From Haliotis cracherodii (Eukaryota), in the NCBI RefSeq assembly GCF_022045235.1, contig NW_027266268.1, positions 4,278,001-4,342,000 on the forward strand: DNA of 64,000 bases, given 5' to 3'. Positions 10,301-54,300 of this stretch are shown one piece after another. Position numbers and translations under genes: made by a program. Below the pieces are notes generated by a model. It worked only from the letters and a program-made list of their open reading frames with translations, ran no database searches and was not told where the DNA came from. Numbering within the stretch: the first letter of the stretch is position 1; each line of letters opens with the position of its first letter.

Positions 10301-13300
10301 ATACTGTTCTAACTGTTACATATCACATGCTTGAAACAGATACGAAATTGAGTTAATCTGCTGTACTATGATGTGGTAACTTGTGCATTATTACACTTCA
10401 CTACTGGACTCATCATTGGCGGTTAAGTGAGTGACTGAGAGAGGAGGTTTTTCGTCACTCTAAAATATTTTCTGTTATATCACGGAGTGTCAGCTTGATG
10501 TAAGTGGAAAGTGATATAGGTCACAGATGTTTACTGGTTATGGTGATGAATGAACCTAGCAACATAATAATGGCAAACCAAGATTCAAGCCCTGTTCATG
10601 ATCATAGGTTTCTGACACACCTAAGGGAGGAAACTCTGCACAGCAACTTGCTGCACCTTAGACGACTATAACACCGGTGCCCCCAGAAAACAGGTATGGT
10701 ATTATATCTTGATGCTGCACATTATAAAACCTTTTTAAAACCTGAAGTCATCAGTTTGATCTACCTCATGACAGTCCTCATACAAGAAGACTTTGAGATG
10801 GATAACACCTTGATATTTCAAAAGGGTATATTACACTAGCTGGCTTCATGTACTGATGTTGCATGTGATAACATGCTGCCTTGGTCACGGTAGCCACATT
10901 GCGTGACTCTGCAATAATCATTGACATGCTATATTGTCGGACGCAAGCAATTTCCATAACCAGTTACACATATATATGAAGGACAAGCAAATATTCCATC
11001 CAATTTCAATAATGCTACCATGGATTTGACTTCATTTGTTGTTAAAGATAAGATACATAGTCACAAACTCACTCAAAGCTCATTTGAATATTTGTCAAAT
11101 AGAATTATAGTTTGGTGTCTTTTCAGTACAAATTCAGTAATCCAATCTTAACTGTATACTGTAATATTAATATCTCATTACTATACAATACAAACATAAC
11201 AGGTTCATTATGCTCACAACATCCTCCAAAGACCTGACAGGTCAGGCTTCTGTTGGGCCGATAGCCTTAGTTCTCTGAGCATTAACCTTAAGTGTTTGGA
11301 GTTCTGTTGGACCAGTAACCCTAAGGCTTTGGGGTTCTGTTGGGCCAGTAACCTTAAGTCTTTGTGGTTCTGTTGGGCCAGTAACCTTAAGTCTTTGTGG
11401 TTCTGTTGGACCAGTAACCCTAAGTCTTTGGGGTTCTGTTGGGCCAGTAACCATAAGTCTTTGGGGTTCTGTTGGGCCAGTAACCTTAAGGCTTTGGGGT
11501 TCTGTTGGGCCAGTAACCTTAAGTCTTTGTGGTTCTGGTTGACCAGTAACCATAAGTCTTTGGGGTTCTGTTGGGCCAGTAACCTTAAGGCTTTGGGGTT
11601 CTGTTGGACCAGTAACCTGAAGTCTTTGGGGTTCTGTTGGACCAGTAACCTTAAGTCTTTGGGGTTCTGTTGGGCCAGTAACCTTAAGTCTTTGTGGCTC
11701 TGCCCGGCCAATAAACTTAGCTTTACCTAGCTGTTAATTCTATAACATGAAGAACAGCACAAACCAACATTTAGTAGTACAGTATCAGTAATCCAAGGGC
11801 ATCTTTAAAATAGTGAACCCAGCTGAATGCACAGTATGTGGTATTATGTGATGTCAGATCTAAACAGTTCAGACAGGATACAAAAACTGACAAGTCACTG
11901 GATGTACTACAATAACATCAGCAAGTTAGAGCTGTTTTTGCATGAACATGTGACTAATGACTTACATGAAATTGTTTTCCTCAGTGTAACTCTTGTAATT
12001 TCAAAACCGCTATGTATTTGGAATCACTGACTTTCCTATCCCTAAATTATATCCAAAAATCGGATCATACATTCATGCATTGATACAAAGCAATACAGTT
12101 TCGTAAAAGGAGGATACGTAAAGTGATGTGAATATGAATGTAACACATTATTTCTGAAAGGATGTAATTGGAGTTCTCAAGTTACTGTTCTTCTGAGCAA
12201 CAAAAATTAAAGGTTGGGTCTCTGAGCAGTGAACCTTAAACATTTTTTATGTATCATATCGTCTATTGTGGTGAATTTTAATACCACTGTAATCCATTTA
12301 GTATTATGCCATTGTGTATCATCACATCCCTACTGTCAGAGCTGCTGAACTCAACACTGGCTTGTCACATCTTTACTGTCTTTAGTCACTGAGAAGGCTT
12401 GCAAGTTGACTAAAGCAACAATGTTAGGACAAGTGCAAGTAGGGTGGAGATGATGACTACAGTTATACAGAAGGAAACAATATACTCATGTGGCACCACA
12501 CAGGCTCATCATTAGTGGGGAAAATGGTGGGAAAAGCTAGGTGTTACTATATATATAAAACTCTTAAAACTGAGCGAAAGTACATAACTATTAATAATAA
12601 TAGGAATAACAAATGTTTCATATAACACTCAATATAAAAATATATAATTAACTCAAATATGTTAAAAATGTGAAAATGCAATTAAAATCCAAAAGAATAT
12701 CAAATACTATTGGTGATTGGTTTGAAACAAGCAGCTCATTGAGGATAAAATCTCAGAGTGAGTGAGTATCATTTATGCCGCTTTTAGCAATATTCCAGCA
12801 ATATCACAGCAGGGGACACCAGAAATGGGCTTCACACATTGTATCCATGTGGGGGATTAGACTCGGGTCTTCTGTGTGACGAGTGAACGCTTTTAACCTC
12901 TTGGCTATGCAACCACCCCCTTAAGTAATACATACATATATATATGATTACTCAGCTCATCCTTGCATACCCAGTGCATTATATCTCCATTCTATTTCAA
13001 TAAATATGCTGGACACATTCACCAAAGTTTTTGTACCGGACGTTACGTCACTATCTCCATCTCTCCTACCATAGCATAGCAATCCTAACACTCATCAGTG
13101 ATCAGATGGCTATTTATAGCTCCGTGCCATTTGAATTTTGCTGCCAACTAGGTCCAGGATATTTATCAAAATAGAATGGAGATATAACACACTGGAACAT
13201 GGAGGATGTACACAGATGCACCCAAGACATGACCGACAAGCTATATATCTGGCGGGATATAAGGAGAAAACACTGCCACCTGGTGTTAATTGTGTCCAAT

Positions 13301-35700: not shown

Positions 35701-38700
35701 TGAGTATAGCAGGGCAAGTTTACTCAACACCTGGTGCCTGATTCCAGCTATACATCATGGTGGTCAGTAAATAGTCAAGTGAAGACCAGACAAACCAGAA
35801 ACTGATATTATGAGCACCACCCTATGCCATCAGGGCACAATGACACTCAAATTACCTGGCCTCACCCACCAATCCACAACCAACCCACTTTGGTATTCCA
35901 ACCAAGAATGTCACTGCAATGAATCTTTATATTAAACACATACTTTGTGTGAGAGAGACAGGAGCTTGAATACCACTATAGCATCAATGCTTAAATTTAC
36001 CTGCATAAGTAGAAGTCCCACGATGAAGCCGCTGCCCTGACAGTACCCAACCTCCCGGTCGTGGAGAGAGTACGCCTGCAACACAAAACTAGGATCAGAG
36101 GAAGCAGGACTACCAGCAACAGTGCAGTCAACTAAAGCCAAGTACACCAATGCCATCAAGCATCAACAGTGCAGTCAACTAAAGCCAGGTACACCAATGC
36201 CATCAAGCATCAACAGTGCAGTCAACTAATGCCATGTACACCAATGCCATCAAGCATCAACAGTCCAGTCAACTAAAGCCAGGTACACCAATGCCATCAA
36301 GCATCAACAGTGCAGTCAACTAAAGCCATGTACACCAATGCCATCAAGCAACAATAGTGCAGCAATTGATACCATGAGCAACATCCCACTGGCAGGGGTA
36401 TGATGGCATGTTAATGCAACTGATCCATCTCGTCACCTAATACGACAAGAATAGGGGACCTATTCTAGCCCGGAACCCCCACAGAGTGTGAGTGATTTAG
36501 CATCCAGCAAATTATTTGACATCAGTCAAATGAATATAAGAATACATACAGGTAAATTAATGACAACTGAGAAAATTCTCTAAGATTCATGAGCCAATGA
36601 ATCATGACCTTATTCATGTGTTGTATTTTATCATTGAGGTAACAATACTATAGTCCTATCAATCATAGCATCAACATTTAATGAATCATTACAGTTTTAG
36701 TTTGTCATAGAAATAGTTCACAGAAATTTACTACCAGTCATTATACTGTCATGCACATAACAAATATGTCCATCTTCTCACCTTCATGACATTGAAAAGA
36801 CTTTCTTGTCCTAATCCATCCTTCTCCTTGAAGAAATCGTGATCAGGGAAAGTCCTTGCAATATCTCGGCGAATAAGCTTCTCACACGGTGAGGTTTTCT
36901 TGAGATATTCTGCGTACAGCTGTTTGAACTGAGAGTCGTTCACACCCAGTAACAGCTGCCAGGCTAGACCACGGAAATGGTGAGGAATCCCTTTCCGAAC
37001 CAATTCCTGAGAAAGAAGAAACAAGTTCGTGAATGAAGTATGGTCTGTAAATCATTGAATCTGGACCAGATAAACCAACAGTTGAAATCTGGAGCTACAA
37101 TGCTTTACTTCATTTCCATGAATTTTACTGATATCATCTTGTTGCACATAATCAGAAGCCTGAAGCCTATTGTAGATGGGGATTTCAAAGTCAGATTGCA
37201 GAAATCAACCACCGACACACTGAACATTGAGTTCTGGTGATTAGAATATGTCAGTTATATGTAACATGTAATCTACAATTAATATAAATTGTAATGATTA
37301 AAACTGCCATACTTTTTGTGTTCCCCAGGACTTTCAATATAAATTATAGGCATCCATTCTCAGCTTGTATACATATATATTGTAATATTTTGTATCTGGT
37401 ACAACTCTTCAAGTCACACATTGTAACAACTTGATTTCCACATATCGGTAATCAGTTCTTCAAAAAAGCAGGATCAAGTCTGCCTCCATGAGGGAAAGTG
37501 GGAATAAATCATTACTTCCATGTTTACAGATACCTAAATGGTCGTGTGAAGTATCTTAAGAGTTATCTCCCCTTAGATCACTAGCCTATCAATACAACAC
37601 AATCTCATTAAAATCAGACCTTATAATCTGATACAATACCTCCCTGTATTAACATCTTGGGACACCTGCATAGACGGTTGCATCAGGTGAATCCTGAACG
37701 ATCTTTGACCACCAAATCTAAATGAAGCCTGCATGGGTTCTTGAGCCAAATAACCATCAGCTTTCAAAAACGACTCAGAATTATATTTTCCACCTCCAAT
37801 GTTCCACAGAAAACCACAGAGAACACAAATATTACTTTGATGGTACTTGCATTTGGGTGTACATATCCACAACAATATAATGAGGCTGTTATACTATCTT
37901 CTTTTAGAATTTGCCGTTTGAGTTCGTTTGTGAGATACAGAAATGCAGCTTTGCTGGTTTGAACACTCGTACTGAGAATTTAGATGCCTTTAGATGATAT
38001 ATTGATATATTGTGATACTTTTGAGTCAATATATATTCCTACTAAAATTTCCAATCAATGCCATCCCCAGCAGAGATATGATTGAACATCAATGTGATTA
38101 TGTGATTGCTATACAAGTAATACATTATGAAGATCATGACACAAATCCTATGACAAGATAAACCAAATCTTAATATTTGAGTATTCACGAACAACTAAAG
38201 CATATTACTAGATGCAAGATTTTTCTTACGAGATTTTCCCAGGAGTTAATACATGTTTCAAGAGGAACCCTATAATTCAAGGCTTCTTCAAGCCTGTATG
38301 AATCCTGTCACCACAGGAAAGGACGGCCCTGAAAGTGTTCCTACCTTGATGTAGCCTGTTTTCTTCTTGATACTGTCCCACTCGTTGACGAGACGCCCCC
38401 ATGTCTCCCATAAGTTTTCAGATGGATTGGCAGCTGAAATACAATAAATGAAATAGAACTCTAGCTGCATAATATATGGTCACAGCCTGTTCAATATGAA
38501 CCCTGATACCCAAGTTTACTGTTAATATTTGGTTATATTGATAACCCAAAAATATGCTTTTGATAATGATGGACCACATGTTTCAAATCTTACTGAGCAA
38601 ACATAATCTAATGAGGGCTATGAAACATCCGTGTTGTACTTTTCTCTTTGTCAATAAGTAAAAGAGTATGCGCTTTCTTAAACCTTTTTCAGCTATATTC

Positions 38701-41700
38701 TAGCCATATTGTGTTGAGGATATCATGAATGTGCTTCAATCATGCAGGAAATCAAACCCATGTTTTTGACAAAATGAGCCAAAGCTTTATCCGCTATCCC
38801 ATCCATCTCATCTCAAATACAACAATGGCTAGGCACACAATACCCTGATGTCTGTACTTCCAGCCATTACAATGCAAAAGCAGTTACATTTATGTTTTCA
38901 CACTAAGTGACCAAATAATAACTCATCCAAGTCGATAGCTGAAATCCAGTTCACTCCCTTGTGAACATAAATTCATGAAAATGCTGGAAAATACATTTAT
39001 AAGCAAGCTGTCAGCTCAAGATCCCGGAAACATGCTCCATGACAGACAGCACCATTACAGGCAGGGAGGTGAGGGAAAGTAAAGACCGGTCATAATGACT
39101 CGAGAAGGGTCAAAACACCACTATGGTCAACAGTTGACATCAGAGGCCACGGAAAGAATCAGGACAGGACAATCAAGTGATTGATATTATGAACAACATT
39201 CCACACAATGACTCGCCATCAACCAAGCCCCCTGACTCTGACCACACAATCCATTAAGTCACTTGTACGGCCAGCATAGATTGCTAAGGACCTATTCTGG
39301 AATTCTCACGGGGTACCTGAGATAAATACTGAATGTCTGAACCTTTATTTTTCTCAATGGGGTTCATTTGAGGGGAGAAATCTTAAGCTTAAGATCACAT
39401 TGATATTTCATTAGTGAATGGCAAAGACTTCTCAAAGGACAAATGCAATCCTAGACTAACATATTCAGTCCCTGAAAAAAAGTTATGTATAAAATTAAAC
39501 AAAATCATTCTACAAGTACTACAGCATCCTTTAAGTCTCATAATTTCAGGTGAAAGGGGGATGAGAGTAGAATGGGGAGCAAATATTTTATTATAGAAAC
39601 GGAGTATGGATTGTGTATGTGACAAATCCAGTCCAAACAGTCTTCTGACTAATTTATCAAGTGAGGTTTATCATGTTTACCTATTCCACATAAGCATACA
39701 GAGACTGATTCAGACAAATAGCCTTTAATAATCTGCTGATGTTCAACATAGTAAAATAGACCAATAACCTTTGGAAGCTAAAGTTTCAGGGATCACATTA
39801 CAGTGGGTGAAGGGACACCATCGGTTGTGTTATCTGGTGCTTAATATGAGAGTTGGAAAACATTTCAAATCCATATCCCAACACTGGACTGTCAACAAGT
39901 GCCAAGACACAAGACAACTGTTTTGTCTTTAATCCATATAGCAATATTTTAAACTGGCAATTTCCAAACCAGGGATGCACCACATTACACAAGGCTGCCC
40001 ATATCATTCATATGTATATGAAGAATCACTACATCCTGTGGCAATATTTACCTACTATCACAGTCTGTGACTTTAAAGTCAGAATTCTTTGGTCTTGTAA
40101 GCTAGTAAGCTCAGATAATCATGTTAAAGATAGTATGTTCAATCCGTAGGTTCAATCCAGATTATAAATGTCTGAGGAATGACTCTAGACAGACTGACTG
40201 TAACAGTCTACCTGTACCTCTGTCATTATGCTGAACAAAGCTGATGAATATTGAGGATGAATAATACGAATGAATGAACAATGCTACAATGCTGATGAAC
40301 AATGTGGATGAACAATGCAATGCTGATGTGGGTGAATATATGATCTACATATACTTAAGATGGTGAATATGGTTTAACACTGCTTTTAGCAGTATTCCAG
40401 CAATAATGGCTTTACACATTGTACCTATGTGTAAATTCCAACCAGCGTGGCGAGCAATGCTTTAACCACAAGGCCACCCTATAGCCCCGATGACATCATA
40501 GACAGTATGAAAGAAATAAAACCATTGTAGAAGTGCCTACCAAAAGTAAATGTACACAAGCACTTATTGACCATGATGAACATAATAAACACATTTCAGG
40601 TGCAGAAAGTAGTTATTGCCATCTTTTGGGGCTATCAATCAGAACAGACCTCAAATTACAGCAAGGCTGCCAAACGTGTCAACATAACAACATTAGTAGC
40701 AATGATCACCATCAGCTACTGGGTGGTTGTAAAGCATCTTCCTGACTATAAAAGTCCAGTTTCTACCCTTGCCAGACCAGGCAGGAATTTCTGGGCTCGA
40801 TCATAGCGCCACCAGTGACTATTATGAGTTATGCCCCTTCTGTCTCCCTTCTATTGACTAATCAGATTCCATCTCTCATATTATTCACATTTGCTTCAAA
40901 CAAAATGGCGGCGCCTAGCTGAAACGATCTGATCGATAATCAAGATCTATATTGTAATAAAACGGGTCTTTCCCCCGTGAAGTGCATCTGATCACTTGAG
41001 CACCTTGATTACAACATGAATAGATTTGCAAAATATCTGTCGATGCCCAGTTGACGGTATGCATGCTTTGCAAATCATGTAATCGACCGAAACCTGTACG
41101 TTGAAATCCATGTAGTTTATGAACCGGATGTCTAGTTTGATACGCGATTTTGACTGATCTATGCATGACCCGTTAATCAAGCTAAAATGTAGCTCCGGAA
41201 TCCTAGCCTAGTTCGGCAAGGGTGGAAACTTGACTTTTTTTGGTCAGTTAACGCCCTTGCCTCAAGAGGATGGTTGTAAAGTAACCTGATTGTTAATAAA
41301 CAAAACTGCAATTAAACATTTTCCAACCCCAAAGATTATGTCCTCTCAAAAATCCATGTGTTAGTGTTATGACTACACAGAAAACTTCATTCCCCTCTAT
41401 TGTTTGCCTACATATCTTTCAGTTTAGTCCACAGTTTAGTTCATGTGGCATTCATTCAGCTGACACAAAACCAGAGACACATATCTTCCATATCAAATTT
41501 ACACAGCCTCGGTTGAAACGAAGCAGTAAGGACCTAATCATTATCCTGATGTTAAAACTTAGAAGACTTAGGTCATCTAGATTCATTACCATAGGTAAGA
41601 AACAAGATCCCAAGGACCCATCCCCCACTGCACGCACGCATACACGCACGCGCAATCCCCGTACATAGTCAAAATATTGTGGATGAATGTTTTACACTAC

Positions 41701-44700
41701 ATTGGCACAGCCTATCAAACTCATTGCATATATACTTAATTGACTCATCCTCATCATCCTTCTAAATTTCATATTAAAAGTTTATCAAATGGAAATGTGA
41801 TACGATTAGACAAAATCAGTGTTAAATGGGTTTAAAAGCCTAAAATTCGAATGTACCAGTTCCTCATTGATAAGCATGAAAATTTGCAATTCAAAATATA
41901 TACATTTTTGTACATTTACAGCCTCCAACCAACACTTTCCTAGGTATGACTGGCACCACAGGTCAACACCATATGGTAACCAAAAAACTTACTACTTATT
42001 TGTGTAACATGGCACCCTTCAATATTCTAGCTATATGACGGCAGACCTGTAATTACCATTCTGGGCCAGACAAACCAGTGATTGATACTGCGAGCAATGA
42101 TCCTTGTCATCAGGGCACTTTGGACACTCCATGAACTCTACACTCAAGCACCAAGCCTGTTGACCCGGTAGATTAAGTCTCCTTATAAGACAAGCATTTA
42201 TTGCTTAGGAGCAATTCGAACCCGGAATCCCCATGGGGAAAACCTTACTAAATGATCATTCCAGATCCCAATACATAAACATAAACCCAAAGTCCAGTCA
42301 GTCCCATGTATTCACAGACTCCTTTTTAATGAAACGCAACTGAAACTCAAACTAACTTCAACTTTTCTGTAATTGTTTTTCATGCGAGCAAAACAATGCA
42401 AAGCAACTGCAACACCAGAAAATACAAAAATGACATGCATCAACAAATAGAATCAAGAAAACTAAACACACGATTTGATTCTAGGACAACTGTAACCAAC
42501 TTCACAAGAATGGGAAATGATGTACTCATTCACAGAACTCAATAGAACGTGATGTCCGACATACCTTCTTCCATCTTAGTGGGACGGCCGAAAAAACTTT
42601 TTCTCATCATCACTTCACTGACGCAGCATTTTCAGAATAAAACACAATTCAAAACATTCCATTCCTATTCATAGTGTCATATCTTAAAAATCTATGGTTA
42701 TTTGTGAACAATGCATTTGCTGCAAATGCTCGCAAAATATTTATCTTTTTAAATTTGCTATCATGGTTAAATTTCTGACACGGAAACAACAGTCCGACCT
42801 TAATTTTCATGATTATAGCGCCTTGCTCGAGCATGGGATTCAAGGAAGTAATAGTGTTTCAATATTGATTACCAAATAATTAAAAAACACTGAAATAGGA
42901 CAGGGTGTCCTTCTTTGATAAAAAGGAGGGAAAACATTTTATTGTATTTCATTTCAGTCTTAAATTGGTATGGATGTATTGTGCATAATTGTTAACATCT
43001 GTTTGAAATTTGTTACATTGTTTGAATTCTGAATAGGAAGAAATAGTTGTTTTGTCTACTTATTCTAAATGTTCCATATTATGTACATGTTAACCTCATA
43101 TGTTTGGTTTGAAAGTATTTACCAGTATGTATGGACAGATGCCATGAAGATAATATACACACATGTCTATCAAGGTAAAAAGAGAGAAACAGGATCTGTA
43201 GCTCACCTGGCTCTAACTTAAGTTGCATATCCATAAAAGAATCACTTAACTAGTGACAAATGTGATTGAATACTGGGTAAATACAGTATGTTGTCTGTGT
43301 TATCTGCATATCATGTATCATGTAGCTTTACATAAAGGATTTTGTTAAAATCAATATCGTGGAAATTGAAAACAAGCCTAAGTGAGATTGTTGGCATTCT
43401 TGCTCATGCACAGTTTCAGCTTCATAGGTCCTACAGTCTTAGACAAAGCAAATTTATATAGTAGTAGACACGTCTTGGAAACATTAACCAAAAGTTTACT
43501 TAATAAAACAGTTGAAGGTATCAAAGTTAATTCTCTTCTTGTTTTATCACAATTTTGAAGTACATTCAGCATCACAGCTCTAGCATGGGACGACTGTCAA
43601 AAGAATTTTAAACATGAGAGAAGTTATTGGTGTGAAAATCCATGCAAAATCTGATACTCTATTCCATAAAAACATAGCTATATCTAACACAAGATCATGC
43701 ATAAAATTAGATAGACCTATTATTTCCCTGAACACTCTCAGAGGCTCAAGACACAACTGAAGAGCGCTTTGACACAAAAATATGACTTACTCTGTATTGA
43801 CCATAACTGACTCGTTCCAATAGCATGCACTTGGACAGGAAAGTTGTAGACTTACCATGCTTACTCATCTTAAAAGAACCTGATTTCCTCGTCATATTTG
43901 CTTGCACCCAGTCCGAACAGAGTTACAAGTGTACAACCAGCACAGAAATAGCAGTTACCTCCTACTGTTAGGGTATGATAGCCAATATTTCCATTCATGC
44001 TATGTGGATCAAGCAATGTGCTTCCACAAAAACATCACCCCACTGCATGACCCACATTTAGCCACAATACTGCCCATCACTTTCTAGTTCCTGTTTCCTG
44101 CTTGTTGGAGGACATATGAACGACTATCTTGACATATGAACAACTATGTTGACACTGTAACAAGGTCCCTGTGGAAGTGAGAGGTAAAAGACTATTACTG
44201 TTGACCATACACCATTAGGGGCATTAAATGGCATATCATGATATCATAAGTAATATATCAACCAGTAATTATTGTTATCAGGGAAGTAAAAAAAGACACA
44301 AACTACGCTCATGAAACTTAGTCATACACGCCATTATTATTAGAACTTCCTTAAATATTTTACAAGTGAAGGTCTTAAGGGCATTATATCTTTATCAGGT
44401 TTTGTAAACTTATGGTGTTTTTCGAACGAAAAATGCCTTATTAATTTTTATCATGAAAATAATTCTTTAATATTGACCAATACAACCAATCCGATAATTG
44501 CTCAATATTTGTTTGCATGCGTTTGACTGAACTTGTGTAGTGACTTGTATCATGGACACTAATACATTTAGCATCCATGCTTGTATCTCAACAAGTACAA
44601 GGGAGGCAACTCTGTTGCCACTTTGCATTTTCAGGCCTCACAATTATTTTATGCTGGGAGCCAATCACCTCATGCTTAAATACATGCAGGGGGCATTTGT

Positions 44701-47700
44701 GATAATTTCAGATGCTAAAATGCATGACCCAATTCAAAACCTTTTCCATCAAAGAACCTTTTCACCAAAACTTGTCATGACTTAAGGTTGCAGGTACAGC
44801 ATACGTACACATTGATGGGCAAAAATCGGTGTTTTCTATCCATCAAATGTTCCAGATACATAGCAAAATGATTCAGTTTGTATGAAACCTATACTGAAAC
44901 TAAACAAGTTTGGTTGCTAGATTGAAATGTGGTTTTCTTGGAGGTAATTAATATATATAGTGAGTTAGCTGAAGTCGTTGTAGATCTGAGAAATCTGCCC
45001 AGTGATAAAGGATTTATGTGTCTTGCCAGTGAGCAAGAAAGTCTTTCCTTTGTTTATTTTGCTTTATCATTATATTAAGATAGTCATCGAGTCACACTAA
45101 AAGACTGGAAGACCTGAAGTAACACATGTCCTAAATATGTCACATTGAAATTACAAGCCTGCCCACATCAGCAGTGCAATGTTTGTTTACACATATCTTC
45201 CAAAACAAATCAGATACTTGATTAAATTTTGTACAGTGTTTTTGTTACATAAAGCTATATCCATACTGTTTCTGAAATGGTCACTCGACGGCAGCCCTTC
45301 AACACATGCTTAAATACTGTGTTGCTTTCCTTGATCCAAAGACTCATGTCAGGAGTTAAAGTTTTGACTGCAGTCTCCATCTCTAAGTACCATCCATTCT
45401 CAGTAGCTGTGACATATTTAACATCAGCCACTTTTCTAACATCCATATAAAAGGGTTAGATGAAGGTGGCATCAGTGATGTTGTTTGTTTGTTTGTTTGT
45501 TGTTAAAGGACGCACTCAGCAATATTCCAGCTCTGTAAATAATCGGGTTGGCTCAGACAATCCAGTGACTGGCATCATCAGTGATCATGAACATCGATCT
45601 ACACAATTGGGATACGATGACATATGTATCAGCTAAGTCGGACAGCCTGACCACCCGATCTCGTTGGCCGCCTCTTACGACAAGCATAGTCACCCGTTAC
45701 GGCAAATAATGGGTTGCTGAAGACCTATTCTAACCGTGATCTTCACGGGTACATCAATGATGTGATACACTTGTCCATCATATGTCTGATCGTCGTCAGC
45801 ACTTCACAGGTTTCCCCTCCACACGTCTCTATCCCCTGTGAATACGAACAGCCACTACCAAAGTTACAATTTTTGATAAGCGAAACAAGATAAGGCCTGG
45901 TTCTCACTTGCAAGTGACTTGAAGCCATCTATTCTATACACTGCTTGATTGTCATGTGATGGAAGGTTTCAGTGTTCATATATGGGTTAAGGCTCATTTG
46001 ACTTCCATGCTTCATTTTACTGTATTTCCAGGTGATGGAGGATTGTTGTGTATACAAACTTGTGAAGTATTGATGATGATGTCTGACTTAATTTGAAACA
46101 TTTGGTCAATAAATGCAATATAGTTGGGAAGCAATCATTCAAACTTTCTTGAATAATTACCGGCTGAGTGAAAATAACGGCTGAAAAACTTAGAACCCAT
46201 TCATAAGGTTGTTATTTGCCAACAAGAAAGCATATACTTAAGAAAATGGTGAAAAGTATATACATATGTTGATAGAGCCAATGACGCTTGGTATCTTGGG
46301 GCAATCCTTCATAACAAGCAAGGGGTATATGCTTTATCCTACATGATCAGTGACAAAAATCTCATGCTTTGAAATATCCTATCACTAAGTGCTACAGCAA
46401 GAAGAGACCATTGATAAATATGTTTATGACCAATACTGTTCATGAACGATTGAACATGAAAGCAAAAAAACGAAATCATAACATACCTCATTCTTGCAAA
46501 CAACCATACGTGCTGTATGATATGTAAATAGATTTGACAACTGGCTCCAACATGACACATGACACATGAGTTCTGCATGCTTCAATGCCATGAATATTGT
46601 AAAGATGAATACATAAAGATAGATAACCAAATGTCAGATCACATAATGACAATTCTCAGATTAATTACAGTCTGTGCCTAAACCTTCTGTAAATTCACTA
46701 TCAGGCAATAGCATTATCTTATCTATTTTATCTCCAAATCCAACATGATGCCCAGCATCAATTTCAACAGATATTACTCTTTCACAAAATCAGCTTCCTG
46801 TATTAAAATGAAACTTTAATTACCCAGAAATTATTTATTATTTTTACAAGTCTGCAAAAATGATCTGCTTGTCATTTATCTAATACAGTGTTGGGGGGTC
46901 CGGGGGTCCTGGAGGTCTTAACCCATATCTACACATAATGATCTGGGGATCCCCCACATCTTGAACATTAGGGTTAAGATAAGGACCCCTTGACTTGCAT
47001 GCTTAATTTCTAACATTGTAATATGTAGGAAAAGTGATGGTCAAGAAGGAACTGTCACAAGTCTCACACTAGCAGGTTTATGCTAATTTCGAACAGCCAG
47101 AAGAAACAATACTAGTCTAGGATTGGGTAAAGACACAGACTGATTGATGAACAGTAATACCTCACACAGAACATGCAGTTGTACAGCGAGAGACTGCTGC
47201 ATCACACTCACCTGCCTCCTCCTCGTAGGAGACTTGAGCGCTGTAGTGGCTGTTTGAGGAAGTGGTAGAGATCACACTAGAGCCAGAGCCTTTCCTTGAA
47301 TGCCCAGGGGTGGGGGAGCGAGCTACCAGGGCGTTGCAAGACTTCTCATCAGCTTCCAGTTTCCTGCAACATCAGTTCTAGCCAATTTATTATCTTAAGA
47401 AGTGAGGCCACAGTTTATAAAGTTTTCATGACTTTTGAATAATTTTACTTGAGAGGTGGTTAAGTATTGTAATTGCATCCAGAGTGACACAGTTTGTTAA
47501 TAGATTTAGCATTACACAGCTGCCGGTGGTCAAATGCAGTAAACTGACTCATGCTTTCAGAAGAGAGTGTCACACTATGTTGTAGTGTGTCTGTGAAAAC
47601 AAATACCACAAACTCATTACTGAGCAAATACCACCATCAACAGATACACTGAGGCCCCCAGATAGAGTGTAACCTTAATGAGTTGATTGGTTTGAACTCA

Positions 47701-50700: not shown

Positions 50701-51382
50701 CTGTAACAAAATCTGTAAAATAAACAAGAAAATATGGACTGTCACGTAAATTCTTGGTCTCAGTGGGGAGCACTTACAAAGATTAGTTACAGATTTCTCT
50801 AGGTTGGTCAGGGGTGCTTATTGAGCAGGGCGCTTAGTCATGTAATTGCGGCAGATATGGCACATTAAGTTATATCCACCACATGTTCTTCATACTTCTC
50901 CAATAGGATAAGATACAGGCCTACAGATATGCCTTTCAGACTCTCAACAGACCTTGTGCATTGCAATGTAAAGATCTAAATATGACACCTCCTCCAAAAC
51001 AGGATTGTGTACATCATGTATAGACAATCATCTGTAGTTTCAAAACCAGGATTCTTGGCACTTAGGAAAATTTGCTATCTTTCCTTAATTACAAAGCAAA
51101 ACTGGACATTGTAAACTTGAATGTACTTTACCATAGGCTACTTAAAAATGCCTTGACACAATCCCTCACACATTCAAAGAATTCTTTCAGCTGACTGTTA
51201 CACAAATTGATTTACTGCTAACTTGTGGAGCTTTATACTTGTGGAAGTGTGGAGATTCCTTCTGGTCAAACAAACCTGTTTGCTTCTTCGAGTTTTGCTA
51301 ACAACTCCAGTTCAGGGCTTCCCGGGCCCTCGGGATTCCCTTCTTCAGAAGGGATGGGATCACTCGTTGATGTTGTCTCCAT
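3044..51382 (-). CDS. EVI5: EVI5-family TBC-domain Rab GTPase-activating protein, 19 coding exons, ~855 aa (spliced CDS span)
   Basis: Exons join in frame with GT-AG sites. N-terminal ELLAKLEEANR motif; TBC motifs ELVRKGIPHHFRGLAW, IRRDIARTF (R finger), YCQG (Q finger), YASSWFLTLF; then LEKEY..RLRTENRLLRQRIDNLEKESASLADRLIQ and LQEEL-type coiled coils typical of EVI5/EVI5L. Confidence 0.95.
3957..4045. mobile_element. 89-bp MITE, PIF/Harbinger-like
   Basis: 19-bp TIR GGCCCACTTGCACAAAGCG / CGCTTTATGCAAGTGGGTC (2 mismatches), flanked by 3-bp CAG TSD. Confidence 0.75.
4119..4205 (-). CDS. EVI5: EVI5 coding exon 18
   Basis: 87 nt, phase 0-0; KEEMLAAGQLHGEEDTEDLENQIFDLQDE; donor GAG|GTGAG. Confidence 0.88.
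4289..4327. repeat. (CA)n microsatellite
   Basis: Pure dinucleotide run. Confidence 0.97.
5211..5450 (-). mobile_element. SINE-like family A, near full-length copy (~240 bp)
   Basis: Sense 5' end GACCCGTGAAGACCCGGG; body GTCTGGTCCAGACTCAATTATTTACAGAC; 3' tail GCTGGAACATTGCTGA..GGCGTTAAAC(AAAC)n; imperfect TSD TCATAAA(T/C)ATAC. Other copies near 6077, 8830, 9590, 15338, 15595, 20270, 30700, 35720, 36370, 37035, 39150 and 41995. Confidence 0.85.
5810..5905 (-). CDS. EVI5: EVI5 coding exon 17
   Basis: 96 nt, phase 0-0; KKEESMMARIKEAENTSMIAELKQKIASIEIQ. Confidence 0.9.
6606..6752 (-). CDS. EVI5: EVI5 coding exon 16
   Basis: 147 nt, phase 0-0; NHICTNQIRRMDEDSK...MESR; donor GG|GTAAGT. Confidence 0.9.
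7563..7727 (-). CDS. EVI5: EVI5 coding exon 15 (coiled coil)
   Basis: 165 nt, phase 0-0; ...IKHLQEELMTVKVREAQALAESKETKQKVMELETQ. Confidence 0.92.
8508..8654 (-). CDS. EVI5: EVI5 coding exon 14 (coiled coil)
   Basis: 147 nt, phase 0-0; ...VQHLQEELIAVKLREAEANLSLKELRQKV... Confidence 0.92.
9269..9424 (-). CDS. EVI5: EVI5 coding exon 13 (coiled coil)
   Basis: 156 nt, phase 0-0; ...IKQLQEELIGVRLKETE... Confidence 0.9.
10425..10685 (-). mobile_element. Older SINE family C with degenerate tRNA-like head
   Basis: Shared block GATCATAGGTTTCTG(A/G)CACACCTAAGG..AACTCTGC.CAGCAA recurs near 29190, 32680 and 56410; same tail type as families A and B; further partial copy near 15980. Confidence 0.65.
11265..11710. 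repeat. 33-bp minisatellite, ~13 copies (CCAGTAACCTTAAGTCTTTGGGGTTCTGTTGGG)
   Basis: Direct tandem units with substitutions but no indels; explains three overlapping repetitive ORFs. Confidence 0.97.
12757..12920 (-). mobile_element. tRNA-derived SINE family B
   Basis: Clear similarity to the 58848 copy; more degenerate copies near 8350, 38665, 40360 and 60220 (the last with an expanded (GTGA)n tail). Confidence 0.88.
14953..15123 (-). CDS. EVI5: EVI5 coding exon 12
   Basis: 171 nt, phase 0-0; ESASLADRLIQDQVIRAQEAEEMYALKNEL...; donor GA|GTGAGT. Confidence 0.92.
16188..16241 (-). CDS. EVI5: EVI5 coding exon 11
   Basis: 54 nt, phase 0-0; RLRTENRLLRQRIDNLEK. Confidence 0.93.
16523..16583 (-). 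CDS. EVI5: EVI5 coding exon 10
   Basis: 61 nt, phase 2 to 0; LEKEYTALKSKENEEQIELR; follows a 15.3-kb intron. Confidence 0.92.
18823..18977. mobile_element. MITE with CAGGGTTAGAA TIRs
   Basis: Perfect 11-bp TIR; related elements at 62888-63094, ~63486-63689 and 25077-25233. Confidence 0.8.
19128..19269 (+). mobile_element. tRNA-derived SINE family B, plus orientation
   Basis: A box TAGCCTAGTGG, B box GGTTCGATTCC, (ACTC)n tail, perfect 11-bp TSD TATGAGGAACA (19117-19127 and 19270-19280). Confidence 0.9.
21886..21908 (-). CDS. Candidate internal first coding exon (MDFVEFDE), phase 2 into exon 10
   Basis: 23 nt from ATG to donor GA|GTAAGT; upstream in-frame TGA; locally CpG-rich upstream region. 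Confidence 0.45.
23900..24050. repeat. Imperfect ~73-bp tandem duplication
   Basis: CAGTTAGAC(T/A)GATATACTATTTTG...AGCCCA...CACTAGAATAT occurs twice. Confidence 0.8.
26653..26817. repeat. 69-bp tandem repeat, ~2.4 copies
   Basis: Units begin CAGC(T/A)G(A/G)CAGACACTGACTCC at 26653, 26722 and 26791. Confidence 0.9.
31351..31493. mobile_element. MITE with CAGTGTT-type TIRs (family with AATTAAGCATGAAAG..CCTTGTCATAACCCTAATGTT)
   Basis: Related copies at 32986-33110, 46886-47018, ~51945-52074, 60922-61055 and a fragment near 27229. Confidence 0.75.
31910..32007 (-). CDS. EVI5: EVI5 coding exon 9
   Basis: 98 nt, phase 0 to 2; YFQKDVRAKYENDTELLLKTAYQVRYSSKKMKK; donor AA|GTAAGT. Confidence 0.92.
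32325..32565 (-). mobile_element. SINE-like family A copy nested in a family C element
   Basis: High similarity to the 5211 and 45480 copies; family C sequence on both sides (about 32260-32320 and 32570-32745). Confidence 0.8.
32749..32777. repeat. (GAT)n microsatellite
   Basis: Pure trinucleotide run close to the exon 8 donor. Confidence 0.95.
32801..32890 (-). CDS. EVI5: EVI5 coding exon 8
   Basis: 90 nt, phase 0-0; GMEMIFRVGMAILQTSHEDLMSLDMEGMLK. Confidence 0.93.
34130..34273 (-). CDS. EVI5: EVI5 coding exon 7
   Basis: 144 nt, phase 0-0; ELLPDLYLHFQTQNFHTSMYASSWFLTLF...RIMDIFISE. Confidence 0.95.
34468..34593 (-). CDS. EVI5: EVI5 coding exon 6
   Basis: 126 nt, phase 0-0; MPEEEAFAVLVRLMQEFRMREMFKPSMAELGLCMYKLECLIQ. 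Confidence 0.95.
34706..35133. mobile_element. Non-autonomous DNA transposon, TIR CAGTGTTTGA / TCAAACACTG
   Basis: Perfect 10-bp TIR, 5-bp TSD CATTA, subterminal GACCAG/CTGGTC motifs. Confidence 0.75.
36001..36075 (-). CDS. EVI5: EVI5 coding exon 5, glutamine finger
   Basis: 75 nt, phase 0-0; AYSLHDREVGYCQGSGFIVGLLLMQ. Confidence 0.96.
36117..36365. repeat. 47-bp minisatellite, ~5.2 copies
   Basis: Unit CAACAGTGCAGTCAACTAAAGCCAGGTACACCAATGCCATCAAGCAT starting at 36117, 36164, 36211, 36258 and 36305. Confidence 0.95.
36782..37006 (-). CDS. EVI5: EVI5 coding exon 4, TBC start with arginine finger
   Basis: 225 nt, phase 0-0; ELVRKGIPHHFRGLAW...IRRDIARTFPDHDFF. Confidence 0.96.
38345..38433 (-). 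CDS. EVI5: EVI5 coding exon 3 (ANPSENLWETWGRLVNEWDSIKKKTGYIK)
   Basis: 89 nt, phase 1 to 0; WxxWGxxVNEW motif preceding the TBC domain. Confidence 0.93.
42565..42610 (-). CDS. Candidate alternative first coding exon (MMRKSFFGRPTKMEE), phase 1 into exon 3
   Basis: 46 nt from ATG to donor AAG|GTATGT; in frame with exon 3. Confidence 0.5.
43207..43234 (-). CDS. Candidate alternative first coding exon (MDMQLKLEP), phase 1 into exon 3
   Basis: 28 nt from ATG to donor CAG|GTGAGC; in frame with exon 3. Confidence 0.45.
43856..43895 (-). CDS. Candidate alternative first coding exon (MTRKSGSFKMSKH), phase 1 into exon 3
   Basis: 40 nt from ATG (A at -3) to donor TG|GTAAGT; a second donor 9 nt upstream (GA|GTAAGC) is also phase 1. 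Confidence 0.5.
43959..43998 (-). CDS. Candidate alternative first coding exon (MNGNIGYHTLTVG), phase 1 into exon 3
   Basis: 40 nt from ATG (A at -3) to donor GAG|GTAACT. Confidence 0.35.
45480..45750 (-). mobile_element. SINE-like family A, full-length copy
   Basis: Same head, body and tail; imperfect TSD CATCA(G/A)TGATGT. Confidence 0.85.
47212..47363 (-). CDS. EVI5: EVI5 coding exon 2 (KLEADEKSCNALVARSPTPGHSRKGSGSSVISTTSS...)
   Basis: 152 nt, phase 2 to 1, CAG| acceptor and G|GTGAG donor; Ser-rich RxxSGSS segment as in EVI5 N-termini. Confidence 0.9.
51276..51382 (-). CDS. EVI5: EVI5 coding exon 1 (METTSTSDPIPSEEGNPEGPGSPELELLAKLEEANR); exon extends as 5' UTR to acceptor at 51443
   Basis: ATG follows an in-frame TAA; donor AG|GTTTG, phase 2; acceptor TTTTCATTTTTAG at 51444. 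Absent from the ORF track. Confidence 0.85.
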
Positions 51383-54300
51383 GGAAACCAATAGGTAGAC
51401 TCCTCTTTAATGCGATTTCAGCCATTTACTGTCATTTATGATCCTAAAAATGAAAATATGTGAGCATTAATATAATAACAAGAATTTATCTAAACAGGTC
51501 AAATGTTCATTGCAAGATTGTAATTTATGCCAATCACACTGCATGTGTGACCACATTCACCCATTTTGCCAAGAAACAGTTTCAGCACAGTATGCTATGG
51601 GCCAAATGTCTTGTCTTTTAAGGTTTAGGAGATTTCACCAGTCCTTCCTAAATTTTATTAGCCTCAGACTAACATGTTAATGTCTAACACTATTTTATCC
51701 CTTTAAATGACTCTTATTTCTTCGAACACTGCATGTTATAAATAGTATTCTCCTTCCCAGCTCCTGCCAGTTGCATAGTTTGTTGGCATCCATACAAACT
51801 AATAAATGTCATTAAGAGTTCATGGAGGAAGGGAGGTAACTCTAACTGTTAATTCTCCAGTACTGTTTACTGATGCTGAAAGGAACACTATGTTCTACAC
51901 ATTTGTTTATGTTATATATCTGTACACCGTGTTCTAACTTACAAGAGTGCTGGGGTCGTTGAGGTTTGCTGCTTAGTATTTGAATCTAGTGATCCCTAAA
52001 TGTTCAACATTCAACATTCAACATTAGGGTAATGACAGGGATCCCTTGAATTTCATTCTTAATTTCAAACACTGTGTACACATGACAAAACATTTCATGC
52101 ACACCTTCAGATACTCAATTTGGCAAATGTCAGGCCTTTTCAGCATATTCAAGCTAAATTACAACTTAGGCCCAAACATGAAACCTCTCTCTGCATACAC
52201 AACTGGTGCCTGGTCTTGTAAGCTGGCTATTCCAACATCCCCACAGACAAGAGTACTAATACTAATAGGATCCATTCTGCCCTTAGTTAGATTCCTACTT
52301 CAGACAAGCTTCCAACTTACCAATACATCCTGATGGTGTATCAAGGACATTTCTTTTTCCATAAAGTAGTTGCTATGATACATAATGCTGACTTCCCATT
52401 ACTATGATTACTTAACACTGAATGACACTGCAAACATTTAGCTAGATTGTGTGGTCATGGTGGTAAGGTCATTTCCTTCATCAAGATAATGTTCAAGATA
52501 ATCTATACCATGTATTCTTGGTACAACTGTGTCAGCCTATCAGTGCAATGATGAAACTGTATGTCCTTGGAATGCACTGTAACAGGTCATTGAACTTCCT
52601 ATGATTATCAATCACCATTACCCAGTTACTTGAGAGTCTGATCAGATTAATCAGACCATATCAGCTACCTTTCCAGTGAAGGAAACTAAACAGGGACCTT
52701 GAGGTTTACTGCTAAGGTATTTGCATCTAGGAACCCCTAAATCTTTTACTGTTAACAAGAATATGACAAGAACTCTTTGTGATAACGAACATGAATATGA
52801 AAGCATTACCTATCATGCCTATAGATGTGACATCCCTGGAAGAGGTACGATGAATGTCCTTTTGGGAAATGTTAAACTTTAAAGTTAAGAAAAACTATAA
52901 AATATTGCTTTGGAAATGATCAAACATATTCAAATGGCTGACAACTAGCCTCTTTTCTTTCTTACAGTAATCATGGTGATACACTTGCAAGTTTTGGACT
53001 TCTGGCATGGTCAAATATACCAATATGGTAGATATTTGTTTGTAATGTTTAATGTACCAGTACATACATCTCCTATGAAAATCAGTTTCTTGGGACAAAT
53101 ATTTGTTCAAATATAGGAAAAAGACCTCATGAAAAAATATAATATCAGCCTTTTCCACTTTGATATAAATTATAGAGAGATAATCTCTAACTCACTATCG
53201 ATCAATAATCAATAAATATTGGAAAAGTAACTTCACACAATTATGCGGGAAAGTCTCAAAAGAGATCAACATATTTCTCACCACTGGTGAGTGACACATT
53301 TATACATAGATTGTGTTTTGTACAATGTTGTAGATATTTGAGATATAACAAAAAAAGTTGCTTTCTGTCATCGACAATTGACATTATTAATAATAACAAT
53401 TTTATCACAATAGTTTATGTAAGTTATTATCGATGACAACAATTTCATATCAATAATCGTTAATAGTTTTTCCCATCAATGATAATTCCGATTTTTAATC
53501 AGTTTAGCCAGCCCTAATAATTTCTAACCCTGATACTGTAATCATGTTAATTATCCAGATCCTGTGGGCCAAAGAACGTCCTTATCCTACTGTTTCCTTT
53601 GGATAAACATTGTATCATTTTACCACTGATACTGCATGTGGCAGCAAGGTCATATCATACGTTCACCTCTGAACCATCTTTCAACTGCAGACTATTATAT
53701 AGATGCATTTGTCTGTGAGATGTCAACATGTTGCAAGTAGGGCTGTGTAATGGGAAAAAAAAAAAATCGATATTGCAAAATACTGCAATACAAGTACTGT
53801 ATAACATTATTTGTGAATGAATTTCAGTGTAGATGTTTGGTTAATTGATACAAATAATAAGGAAACTTATTATGTATTATTTACCCAATTTACTGGAACA
53901 CAGAAAATATATTGCAATGTGTATTGTTAAAAAGCCTACTTCAGTATACAGGTAATACCATGCAGTCCAAGTTGAAAGCAGGTTTAATCAATAATGTGAT
54001 GATCATAGGTAAAACAGGTACAATCATTGATAATGAAATACAAAATAAAATGAATAATTGCTGTCAGTTTATCCAATTTCCAGTGAATAATTTAATATCC
54101 ACTGTGTCACCTGATTTACAGAATGTCAGTGATCAGAGTAGAGATAGTAAGTGCGTGCACAGATACATTATACAATGACCGTACTATCAAGCTCTCAACC
54201 CTCCTCTGACATGCTACAATACAACCTACTGGTTAGCTGTGAGCAGCAGTATTACAGAGACCTACATCCCATCAGTCTGCCATGTTAGCAGAGCTCCAGA

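What the first reader, a model, noticed from the sequence alone, without database searches (positions are those of the whole stretch)
42565..43998. Array of four tiny ATG-to-donor cassettes in intron 2: a candidate variable first-exon cluster
Seen: within 1.4 kb on the minus strand there are four short open frames. Each starts at ATG and ends at a good 5' splice site exactly one base into a codon: MNGNIGYHTLTVG (GAG|GTAACT), MTRKSGSFKMSKH (TG|GTAAGT, plus a second phase-1 donor), MDMQLKLEP (CAG|GTGAGC) and MMRKSFFGRPTKMEE (AAG|GTATGT). Phase 1 is what exon 3 needs. I recognised no SINE copies between them. Two peptides carry basic RKS motifs like SRKGS in the canonical exon 2. Inference: several promoters swap short N-termini onto a constant TBC/coiled-coil body, bypassing exons 1-2. 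Caveat: a random ATG/donor pair has about a 1 in 3 chance of the right phase, and I saw several non-matching pairs nearby.
Basis: partly seen in the sequence, partly recalled or inferred. Interest (0 to 1): 0.75.

Follow-up and report, generated by a model that had tools for sequence, protein, structure and literature searches.

The report
Stop-start exon in abalone EVI5
In the abalone gene for the membrane-trafficking regulator EVI5, a 53-base exon spliced between exons 2 and 3 ends the normal reading frame after 88 codons at a stop that overlaps a new start codon, which likely restarts the protein with a short basic head, a rare design known from the rodent Gad1 gene.

Summary
The four ATG-to-donor pairs are in the sequence as described, in intron 2 of an abalone EVI5 gene, and cluster beyond chance. 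They are not four first exons. Cassette 4 is an internal 53-nt exon (42617-42565): RNA contigs join exon 2 to it and it to exon 3 in 4 of 4 runs (3 studies). A fifth run appears to skip it. In the exon-2 frame it reads V-K-stop-stop-stop, and the stops overlap its ATG-ATG (TGATGATG), which opens the intact TBC/coiled-coil frame. Cassette 2 is spliced to exon 3 in 1 of 4 runs and looks like a true alternative first exon. RefSeq models already carry both peptides. No junction was seen for cassettes 1 and 3; cassette 1 lies inside the cassette-2 exon as an upstream ORF. Best reading (0.5): a splice-controlled stop/start switch like Gad1 exon 8A that swaps EVI5's acidic 86-residue head for a short basic one. 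Main rival (0.3): a poison exon. Translation was not testable.

The parts
42565..42617 (-). Internal 53-nt alternative exon (cassette 4). Exon-2 frame: V-K-stop-stop-stop. Minus-1 frame from ATG 42610: MMRKSFFGRPTKMEE into exon 3.
   Evidence: loose ends at 42620 match the exon-2 end and at 42565 the exon-3 start in X1, X2, X7 and X12 (checked; three letters fit both sides, so the AG puts the start at 42617). No other letters in 42565-42620 in any of the 4. RefSeq P0121 and P0130 carry the peptide.
42604..42612 (-). Three tandem TGA stops overlapping two ATGs (42610, 42607): TGATG stop/start overlap
   Evidence: Sequence; translation: the upstream ORF of 88 codons ends at 42610.
42618..42665 (-). 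3' splice-site region of the 53-nt exon: 45-nt AG-free zone and two TGC within 20 nt of the AG (eMIC/SRRM4-like signature; regulation inferred)
   Evidence: 2 TGC here against 0, 1, 0, 0, 0 at five other acceptors scored; AG-free length 45 against 12-44.
43856..44006 (-). Cassette-2 exon, likely an alternative first exon (5' end not mapped); ATG 43895 gives MTRKSGSFKMSKH into exon 3
   Evidence: X7 contig of 180 nt, depth 9.45, covers 44006-43856 and then exon 3, with no loose end upstream. RefSeq H. rufescens X4 (P0123).
43870..43998 (-). Cassette 1: no evidence as an exon. Its ATG opens a 42-codon ORF inside the cassette-2 exon that overlaps ATG 43895 out of frame (candidate uORF).
   Evidence: translation; the X7 spliced contig reads through 43959; peptide in 0 of 405 fetched proteins.
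43207..43249 (-). Cassette 3: unproven. Strongest donor of the four; an AG at 43251-43250 would make a 43-nt internal exon that also reads V-K-stop in the exon-2 frame, with ATG 43234 seven bases after the stop.
   Evidence: No junction at 43207; peptide in 0 of 405 proteins.
51276..51443 (-). Coding exon 1 (main ATG 51382). It has an AG acceptor, so it is likely internal; it carries uATGs at 51435 (5 codons) and 51425 (21 codons, overlapping the main ATG).
   Evidence: tblastn of RefSeq proteins.
47212..47363 (-). Coding exon 2 (end of the conserved helix, Ser-rich SRKGS region), phase-1 donor
   Evidence: single copy in G000.
38345..38433 (-). Exon 3, common acceptor; start of the confidently folded TBC region

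Best explanation
The 53-nt exon at 42617-42565 is spliced between exons 2 and 3, stops the normal EVI5 frame after 88 codons at a TGA that overlaps its own ATG, and likely makes ribosomes restart there, so that the mRNA would give an EVI5 with a 15-residue basic head on an intact TBC and coiled-coil body. Shown: both junctions, the frames, the stop/start overlap, identity of the exon in all runs, and the intact TBC domain in the short form. Inferred: skipping in another sample, hence regulated inclusion; likely neural control by the eMIC/SRRM3/4 system; and translation of the second frame. The ribosome would most likely reach ATG 42610 by leaky scanning and by reinitiation after the short uORFs of exon 1, with some termination-reinitiation at the overlap. 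The cassette-2 first exon would give a similar basic head from its own promoter. The swap removes a predicted helix (residues 22-43) and a disordered Ser-rich stretch.
For:: exon 2 > 53-nt exon > exon 3 in 4 of 4 runs, 3 studies. X12 holds it in one 3285-nt contig (depth 39.5). X3's 4378-nt contig fits exon-2 and exon-3 depths (7.23 expected v 7.21; 4.07 v 4.06) but leaves no depth for the 53-nt exon (2.48 observed; 3.52 if included). X1 has no substitution in 42472-42644 against about 3.5% nearby (P about 0.002); the 4 ATGs in exons 1-2 have a pyrimidine at -3; the exon's two have a purine; the short forms keep the whole Pfam TBC domain; short basic heads join the same exon in cassette 2 and in oyster and octopus gene models. 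Precedent: Gad1 exon 8A (PMC4295415, passages). Reinitiation lets PTC mRNAs escape NMD (PMC10275272 and PMC9661723, passages).
Against: No protein, ribosome-profiling or polysome data. Reinitiation after a long ORF generally needs a TURBS-like element, and the TURBS core that I recall (UGGGA) is absent within 150 nt upstream. The stop lies 264 nt into the CDS, beyond the first 150 nt where NMD escape is common, with many junctions downstream. The runs were selected for holding intron sequence, so they may be rich in nuclear RNA not yet exposed to NMD. The laid runs share most of their differences from the window, so they may be one lineage, and conservation depth is shallow. No counterpart of the peptide was found outside Haliotis. 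RefSeq peptides are predictions. Tissues are unknown, so 'neural' rests on motifs alone. The -3 pattern has about 1 in 16 odds by chance, and 5' UTR exons upstream were not seen.
Confidence: 0.5

Rival explanations
1. The 53-nt exon is a regulated poison exon: inclusion shuts off EVI5 by NMD or by yielding only the 88-residue fragment. The in-frame ATG is a by-product of the TGA repeat.
For: Frameshifting length (53), three stops within 14 nt of the acceptor, many downstream junctions, conserved flanks. An in-phase open ATG in a 53-nt exon is not rare by chance (rough estimate 1 in 5; my arithmetic, no call).
Against: It is the only assembled route from exon 2 to exon 3 in 4 of 4 runs, at depths up to 56. 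A second exon (cassette 2) encodes a similar MxRKS head, and other molluscs have short basic heads at this junction.
Confidence: 0.3
2. The exon is a hybrid first/internal exon. The short protein comes from transcripts that start in intron 2 or late in exon 2, while the form spliced from exon 2 is unproductive. This is the closest version of the first reader's idea.
For: Unspliced contigs run upstream from 42620 in X1, X2 and X7. In X2 the upstream intron is covered and the downstream one is not. Hybrid exons are widespread in human (10.1101/2021.05.27.446076, abstract start). Cassette 2 shows an apparent start region 1.3 kb upstream.
Against: In X1 the listed contigs cover most of the upstream intron up to exon 2 at depth 20-26, which fits downstream-first splicing, as reported for SRRM4 microexons (PMC10250204, passages). 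The exon-2 junction has depth 46-56 in X1 and X2.
Confidence: 0.13
3. All four cassettes are alternative first exons with their own promoters.
For: Phase-1 clustering beyond the simulations; cassette 2 spliced to exon 3 with a free 5' end; cassette 3 has a strong donor, and its ATG and donor are unchanged in X1, X2 and X7.
Against: Cassette 4 is entered from exon 2 in 4 of 4 runs. Unspliced or read-through contigs bridge 43959 in 5 of 7 runs and 43207 in 5 of 7, with no junction at either. One search's joint tables were truncated, so minor joints in X3, X4 and X6 are not excluded.
Confidence: 0.04

Closest known systems
Rodent Gad1 (GAD67) embryonic exon 8A / I-80 (PMC4295415 and PMC2629816, passages; Szabo et al. 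1994 seen only as a citation)
   Same: Alternatively spliced internal exon, length not a multiple of 3, with a TGATG stop/start that splits one ORF into an N-terminal leader and a downstream ORF holding the catalytic domain.
   Different: Here the stops are tripled and the ATGs doubled, ORF1 is 88 codons rather than about 25 kDa, and the form dominates the assemblies of several samples. Gad1's two proteins are reported; here no protein is shown.
Split-ORFs, e.g. SRSF7 (PMC9661723, passage)
   Same: A PTC plus a downstream start splits the ORF; reinitiation clears EJCs and avoids NMD.
   Different: Described for RNA-binding proteins with autoregulation. EVI5 is a Rab-GAP, and here the start overlaps the stop in the same exon and adds a new peptide.
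Alternative first exons and N-terminal isoforms of EVI5 (RefSeq XP_046376394.2, XP_046376395.2, XP_071097143.1; oyster and octopus short isoforms; C. elegans EAT-17 long and short forms, PMC11544243 passages)
   Same: Short heads on a constant body; two of the four peptides are already in RefSeq letter for letter.
   Different: The protein records do not show that the MMRKSFF exon is entered from exon 2 behind a stop. EAT-17S lacks the TBC domain; these forms keep it.
eMIC/SRRM3/4-dependent neural microexons, including the zebrafish evi5b 10-nt microexon (PMC12626424, PMC10250204, 10.1101/2021.02.24.432780; passages)
   Same: Short switch-like exon, UGC close to the 3' splice site, long AG-free zone, apparent downstream-first splicing, trafficking gene.
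   Different: 53 nt is just above the 51-nt limit used there. The zebrafish microexon lies at the 3' end and changes the C-terminus. Tissue and regulator were not tested.
Poison exons (AS-NMD)
   Same: Conserved frameshifting cassette exon with an early stop and conserved flanks.
   Different: Not visibly depleted in the runs laid, and it carries an in-frame restart.

Membership tests
Gad1-type stop/start (bicistronic) cassette exon | Internal exon spliced on both sides | tested here: met
   4 of 4 runs; loose ends match exons 2 and 3.
Gad1-type stop/start (bicistronic) cassette exon | Alternatively included | tested here: met
   Skip form in RefSeq models of four Haliotis species and inferred for X3 from depth.
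Gad1-type stop/start (bicistronic) cassette exon | In-frame stop overlapping an ATG (TGATG), second ORF open into the constant exons | tested here: met
Gad1-type stop/start (bicistronic) cassette exon | Second protein made, dependent on termination at the overlap | not testable with these tools
   No proteomic or ribosome data.
TURBS-type viral termination-reinitiation | 18S-complementary core (UGGGA, recalled) upstream of the stop/start | tested here: not met
   none within 150 nt; only TGGG about 100 nt upstream.
Poison exon (AS-NMD) | PTC more than 50 nt upstream of a later junction | tested here: met
   Stop ends at 42610; at least 14 coding exons follow.
Poison exon (AS-NMD) | Depleted at steady state, rescued by NMD inhibition | tested here: inconclusive
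   Only assembled route in 4 of 4 runs, but contigs give no true inclusion levels, the runs are intron-rich, and there is no NMD-inhibition data.
Variable first-exon cluster | Each unit has its own promoter and lacks an upstream acceptor | tested here: not met
   Cassette 4 uses an acceptor at 42617. Only cassette 2 fits, without TSS data.
Variable first-exon cluster | Units are tandem paralogues | tested here: inconclusive
   Cassette 3 v the 53-nt exon: 16 of 359 pseudo-exons scored as well. They share an acceptor-side motif found at only these 2 places on the minus strand.
eMIC/SRRM3/4-dependent microexon | UGC near the 3' splice site, long AG exclusion zone | tested here: met
   small comparison set of 6 acceptors.
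eMIC/SRRM3/4-dependent microexon | Neural-specific, eMIC-dependent inclusion | not testable with these tools
   Run tissues are coded; no perturbation data.
EVI5 family Rab-GAP | TBC domain followed by long coiled coil; best hits are EVI5 orthologues | tested here: met

The most novel reading that the evidence does not exclude
Abalone neurons use an eMIC-controlled exon to turn most EVI5 mRNA into a bicistronic message that is translated by TURBS-independent termination-reinitiation at a triple-stop/double-start signal. It releases the conserved N-terminal helix as an 88-residue peptide plus a basic-headed Rab-GAP. Cassette 3, which would also read V-K-stop before an in-phase ATG, is a second unit of an array of stop/start exons.
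Probability: 0.12. Interest if true: 0.8.

Novelty: new member of a known kind. Interest (0 to 1): 0.5.

Why it matters
Cellular exons that carry an overlapping stop/start are rarely described; Gad1 was the one clear splice-controlled TGATG case in my searches. A natural case in which this form dominates the mRNA of some samples would be a compact test of how a ribosome reaches a second ORF after an 88-codon ORF without a viral TURBS, and of how such mRNAs avoid NMD. It also warns that a short N-terminus in a gene model need not mean an alternative promoter. If the exon is a poison exon, it is an ordinary regulated off-switch.

Tried and rejected
Run search: no RNA holder was on record as RNA. 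All runs are 'RNA?' guesses; I treat them as holding spliced RNA because their joints fall on annotated exon ends. (9.2 kb, X1, X3, X4, X6) was swamped by repeat-derived contigs: 192 joints and 1569 loose ends were not shown, so it gives no direct junction evidence. X4 had no cover of exons 2 or 3, and X6 could not be resolved. Retrocopy as the source of spliced contigs: exon 2 and the 53-nt exon each match one place in G000; relatives' genomes were not available. Search of shorter proteins with the cassette-4 head: 1 candidate, no hit. Near-length search: 120 of 230 hits listed, none with a related head. Programmed -1 frameshift into the second ORF: the frame is closed by a stop in exon 2 and I saw no slippery heptamer (by eye). 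Tandem duplication of the cassettes: whole-exon alignment not significant. Cassette-3 conservation: P about 0.2, uninformative. Resemblance of RKS to exon-2 SRKGS: three letters, not taken as homology. Literature: 'Haliotis' + 'Evi5' gave 0 papers; 'Evi5 isoform alternative' gave 109, of which 25 titles and abstract starts were seen, none on mollusc N-termini. The library lacks most subscription papers, and no supplements were read; isoform tables there could list this exon. Scan notes: none near, one unrelated.

Full report
Gene. The minus-strand gene is an EVI5 orthologue. An exon query hit Haliotis EVI5 at 99% identity, and the window's exons match the H. cracherodii RefSeq proteins best among the four Haliotis species compared. 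Coding exon 1 is 51443-51276, exon 2 is 47363-47212 and exon 3 begins at 38433. Pfam finds RabGAP-TBC at residues 126-327. The AlphaFold2 model (25 sequences, mean pLDDT 68.5) has a helix at 22-43, a low-confidence stretch at 44-90, a confident fold from about residue 91 and long helices after 364.

Observation. The four ATG-to-donor frames are present and all phase 1. With a recalled, approximate donor matrix, intron 2 holds 3 cassettes scoring >=5, all phase 1 and all in this cluster. None of 300 simulated introns had 3 within 1434 nt, and 5 of 300 had 4 at the looser cut-off (thresholds set after seeing the data). The stretch is single-copy in G000.

RNA evidence. One search listed 22 runs, none on record as RNA; I laid 7 of them, X1 twice. 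In one search (42420-44200; X1, X2, X7, X12; 3 studies) every run had a loose end at 42565 equal to the start of exon 3 and a loose end at 42620 equal to the end of exon 2 (compared; one letter differs in X7). Three letters fit both sides, so the exon is 42617-42565, 53 nt, AG to GT. X12 carries it within one 3285-nt contig at depth 39.5 and X7 within a 521-nt contig. In X1 and X2 the exon-2 junction has depth 45.9 and 56.3, and the contigs leaving the exon run 1269 and 2333 nt without a break at exon 3. No skip junction was therefore assembled in these four runs; assemblers drop minor branches, so this shows dominance, not exclusivity. In one search, X3's 4378-nt contig accounts for the depth of exons 2 and 3 but leaves none for the 53-nt exon, so it likely skips it. 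X3 and X12 bear the same organism label. X4 had no exon cover and X6 could not be resolved. Cassette 2 was spliced to exon 3 in 1 of the 4 runs (X7, 44006-43856, depth 9.45, free 5' end); X1 and X2 cross it unspliced and X12 does not cover it. That X7 contig reads through the cassette-1 donor. Contigs bridge 43959 in 5 of 7 runs and 43207 in 5 of 7 with no junction; one search's tables were cut, so rare joints there are not excluded.

Gene models. RefSeq has MMRKSFFGRPTKMEE joined to exon 3 in H. rufescens X3 and H. cracherodii X5, and MTRKSGSFKMSKH in H. rufescens X4. Cassette-1 and cassette-3 peptides occur in 0 of 405 fetched proteins. So half of the finding is already annotated as predicted protein. 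The exon-2 junction was seen only in relatives about 3.5% diverged in the intron, but the acceptor and exon are letter-identical to the window in those runs.

What the 53-nt exon does to the frame. After exon 2 it reads G|TG AAG TGA TGA TGA, closing an 88-codon ORF at 42610. The last base of the first stop is the A of ATG 42610, and a second ATG follows at 42607. That frame is open through exon 3 into the whole TBC domain. The exon is unchanged in 4 of 4 runs, and X1 shows no substitution over 173 nt around it (P about 0.002). The runs share most of their differences from the window, so this may be a single lineage comparison. The head that is replaced (residues 1-86, net charge -8, 26% Ser/Thr) holds a helix motif found in 277 of 313 fetched long N-termini and an SRKGS-like motif found in 311 of 313 (the set is redundant).

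How the second ATG could be reached (inferred). All 4 ATGs in exons 1-2 have a pyrimidine at -3, and the exon's two have a purine (the purine rule is established knowledge, not tested for molluscs). A 21-codon uORF overlaps the main ATG and ends 244 nt before ATG 42610, so ribosomes that translate it would bypass the main ORF and could reinitiate in the 53-nt exon. Direct termination-reinitiation at TGATG is reported for Gad1 exon 8A (PMC4295415, PMC2629816; passages). In viruses it needs a TURBS (PMC10275272, passages), whose recalled core is absent here. Reinitiation can protect PTC mRNAs from NMD, mostly for PTCs in the first 150 nt (PMC9661723, passages); this stop is at 264 nt. Contig lengths leave about 90-130 nt of 5' UTR upstream of exon 1 that I did not map, and it may hold more ATGs.

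Regulation (inferred). The acceptor has two TGC within 20 nt and a 45-nt AG-free zone, features of eMIC/SRRM4 targets (10.1101/2021.02.24.432780, passages). The upstream intron is covered more deeply than the downstream one in X1 (26.5 v 12.7) and X2 (9.8-16.6 v none), as in downstream-first microexons (PMC10250204, passages). Zebrafish evi5b has a neural microexon at its other end (PMC12626424, passages). Tissues are unknown.

Other molluscs. The exon 2/3 boundary varies widely in gene models: short basic heads in four oyster lineages and two octopus species, in-frame inserts in oysters, and longer in-frame inserts with RKSF/RKTF-like motifs in freshwater snails. Whether these are homologous to the abalone exons, or are first or internal exons, was not testable.

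Cassettes 1 and 3. Cassette 1's ATG opens a 42-codon ORF inside the cassette-2 exon that overlaps the cassette-2 start. Cassette 3 has the strongest donor and a possible acceptor that would also give V-K-stop; the shared acceptor-side motif occurs at 2 places on the minus strand and 1 on the plus strand of the window, but the exons do not align better than chance (16 of 359). It remains open.

Verdict. What is there is one stop/start cassette exon, one probable alternative first exon, one probable uORF and one open candidate. N-terminal switch 0.5, poison exon 0.3, hybrid exon 0.13. It is a new member of a rare known kind, with membership unproven at the protein level. Searches for prior description: listings only unless stated; no supplements were read.

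Noticed in passing
window 51443-51360 (-): Coding exon 1 has an AG acceptor and two uATGs, one giving a 21-codon uORF that overlaps the main ATG. RNA contigs are about 90-130 nt longer than exons 1+2, implying an unmapped 5' UTR exon.
   Followed up: partly
window 43249-43207 (-): Cassette 3 with the AG at 43251-43250 would be a 43-nt exon reading V-K-stop in the exon-2 frame, as the 53-nt exon does; no junction seen.
   Followed up: partly
window 47211-42618 (-): In run X1 the intron upstream of the 53-nt exon is covered at depth 20-26 against 11-13 downstream, suggesting a retained or late-spliced intron.
   Followed up: partly
window 14950-9440 and 5908-5810, 3104-3047 (-): RefSeq Haliotis isoforms differ by a 13-residue exon after residue 464 (not located in the window here), a 32-residue exon at 5908-5810, and two C-termini.
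   Followed up: no
window 11200-11733: A tandem repeat of about 42-nt units that is open in several frames for 160-176 codons, inside an intron.
   Followed up: no
window 40780-41210, 45530-45750, 42060-42260, 39160-39320: High-copy repeats (depth in the thousands) in intron 2, flanking but not inside the cassette cluster.
   Followed up: no
proteins P0037, P0041, P0030, P0033, P0170, P0392, P0201, P0231, P0162, P0164: Other molluscs vary at the same exon 2/3 boundary: basic in-frame inserts in snails, short basic heads in oysters and octopus. Bivalve and cephalopod models also have alternative starts joining exon 2.
   Followed up: partly
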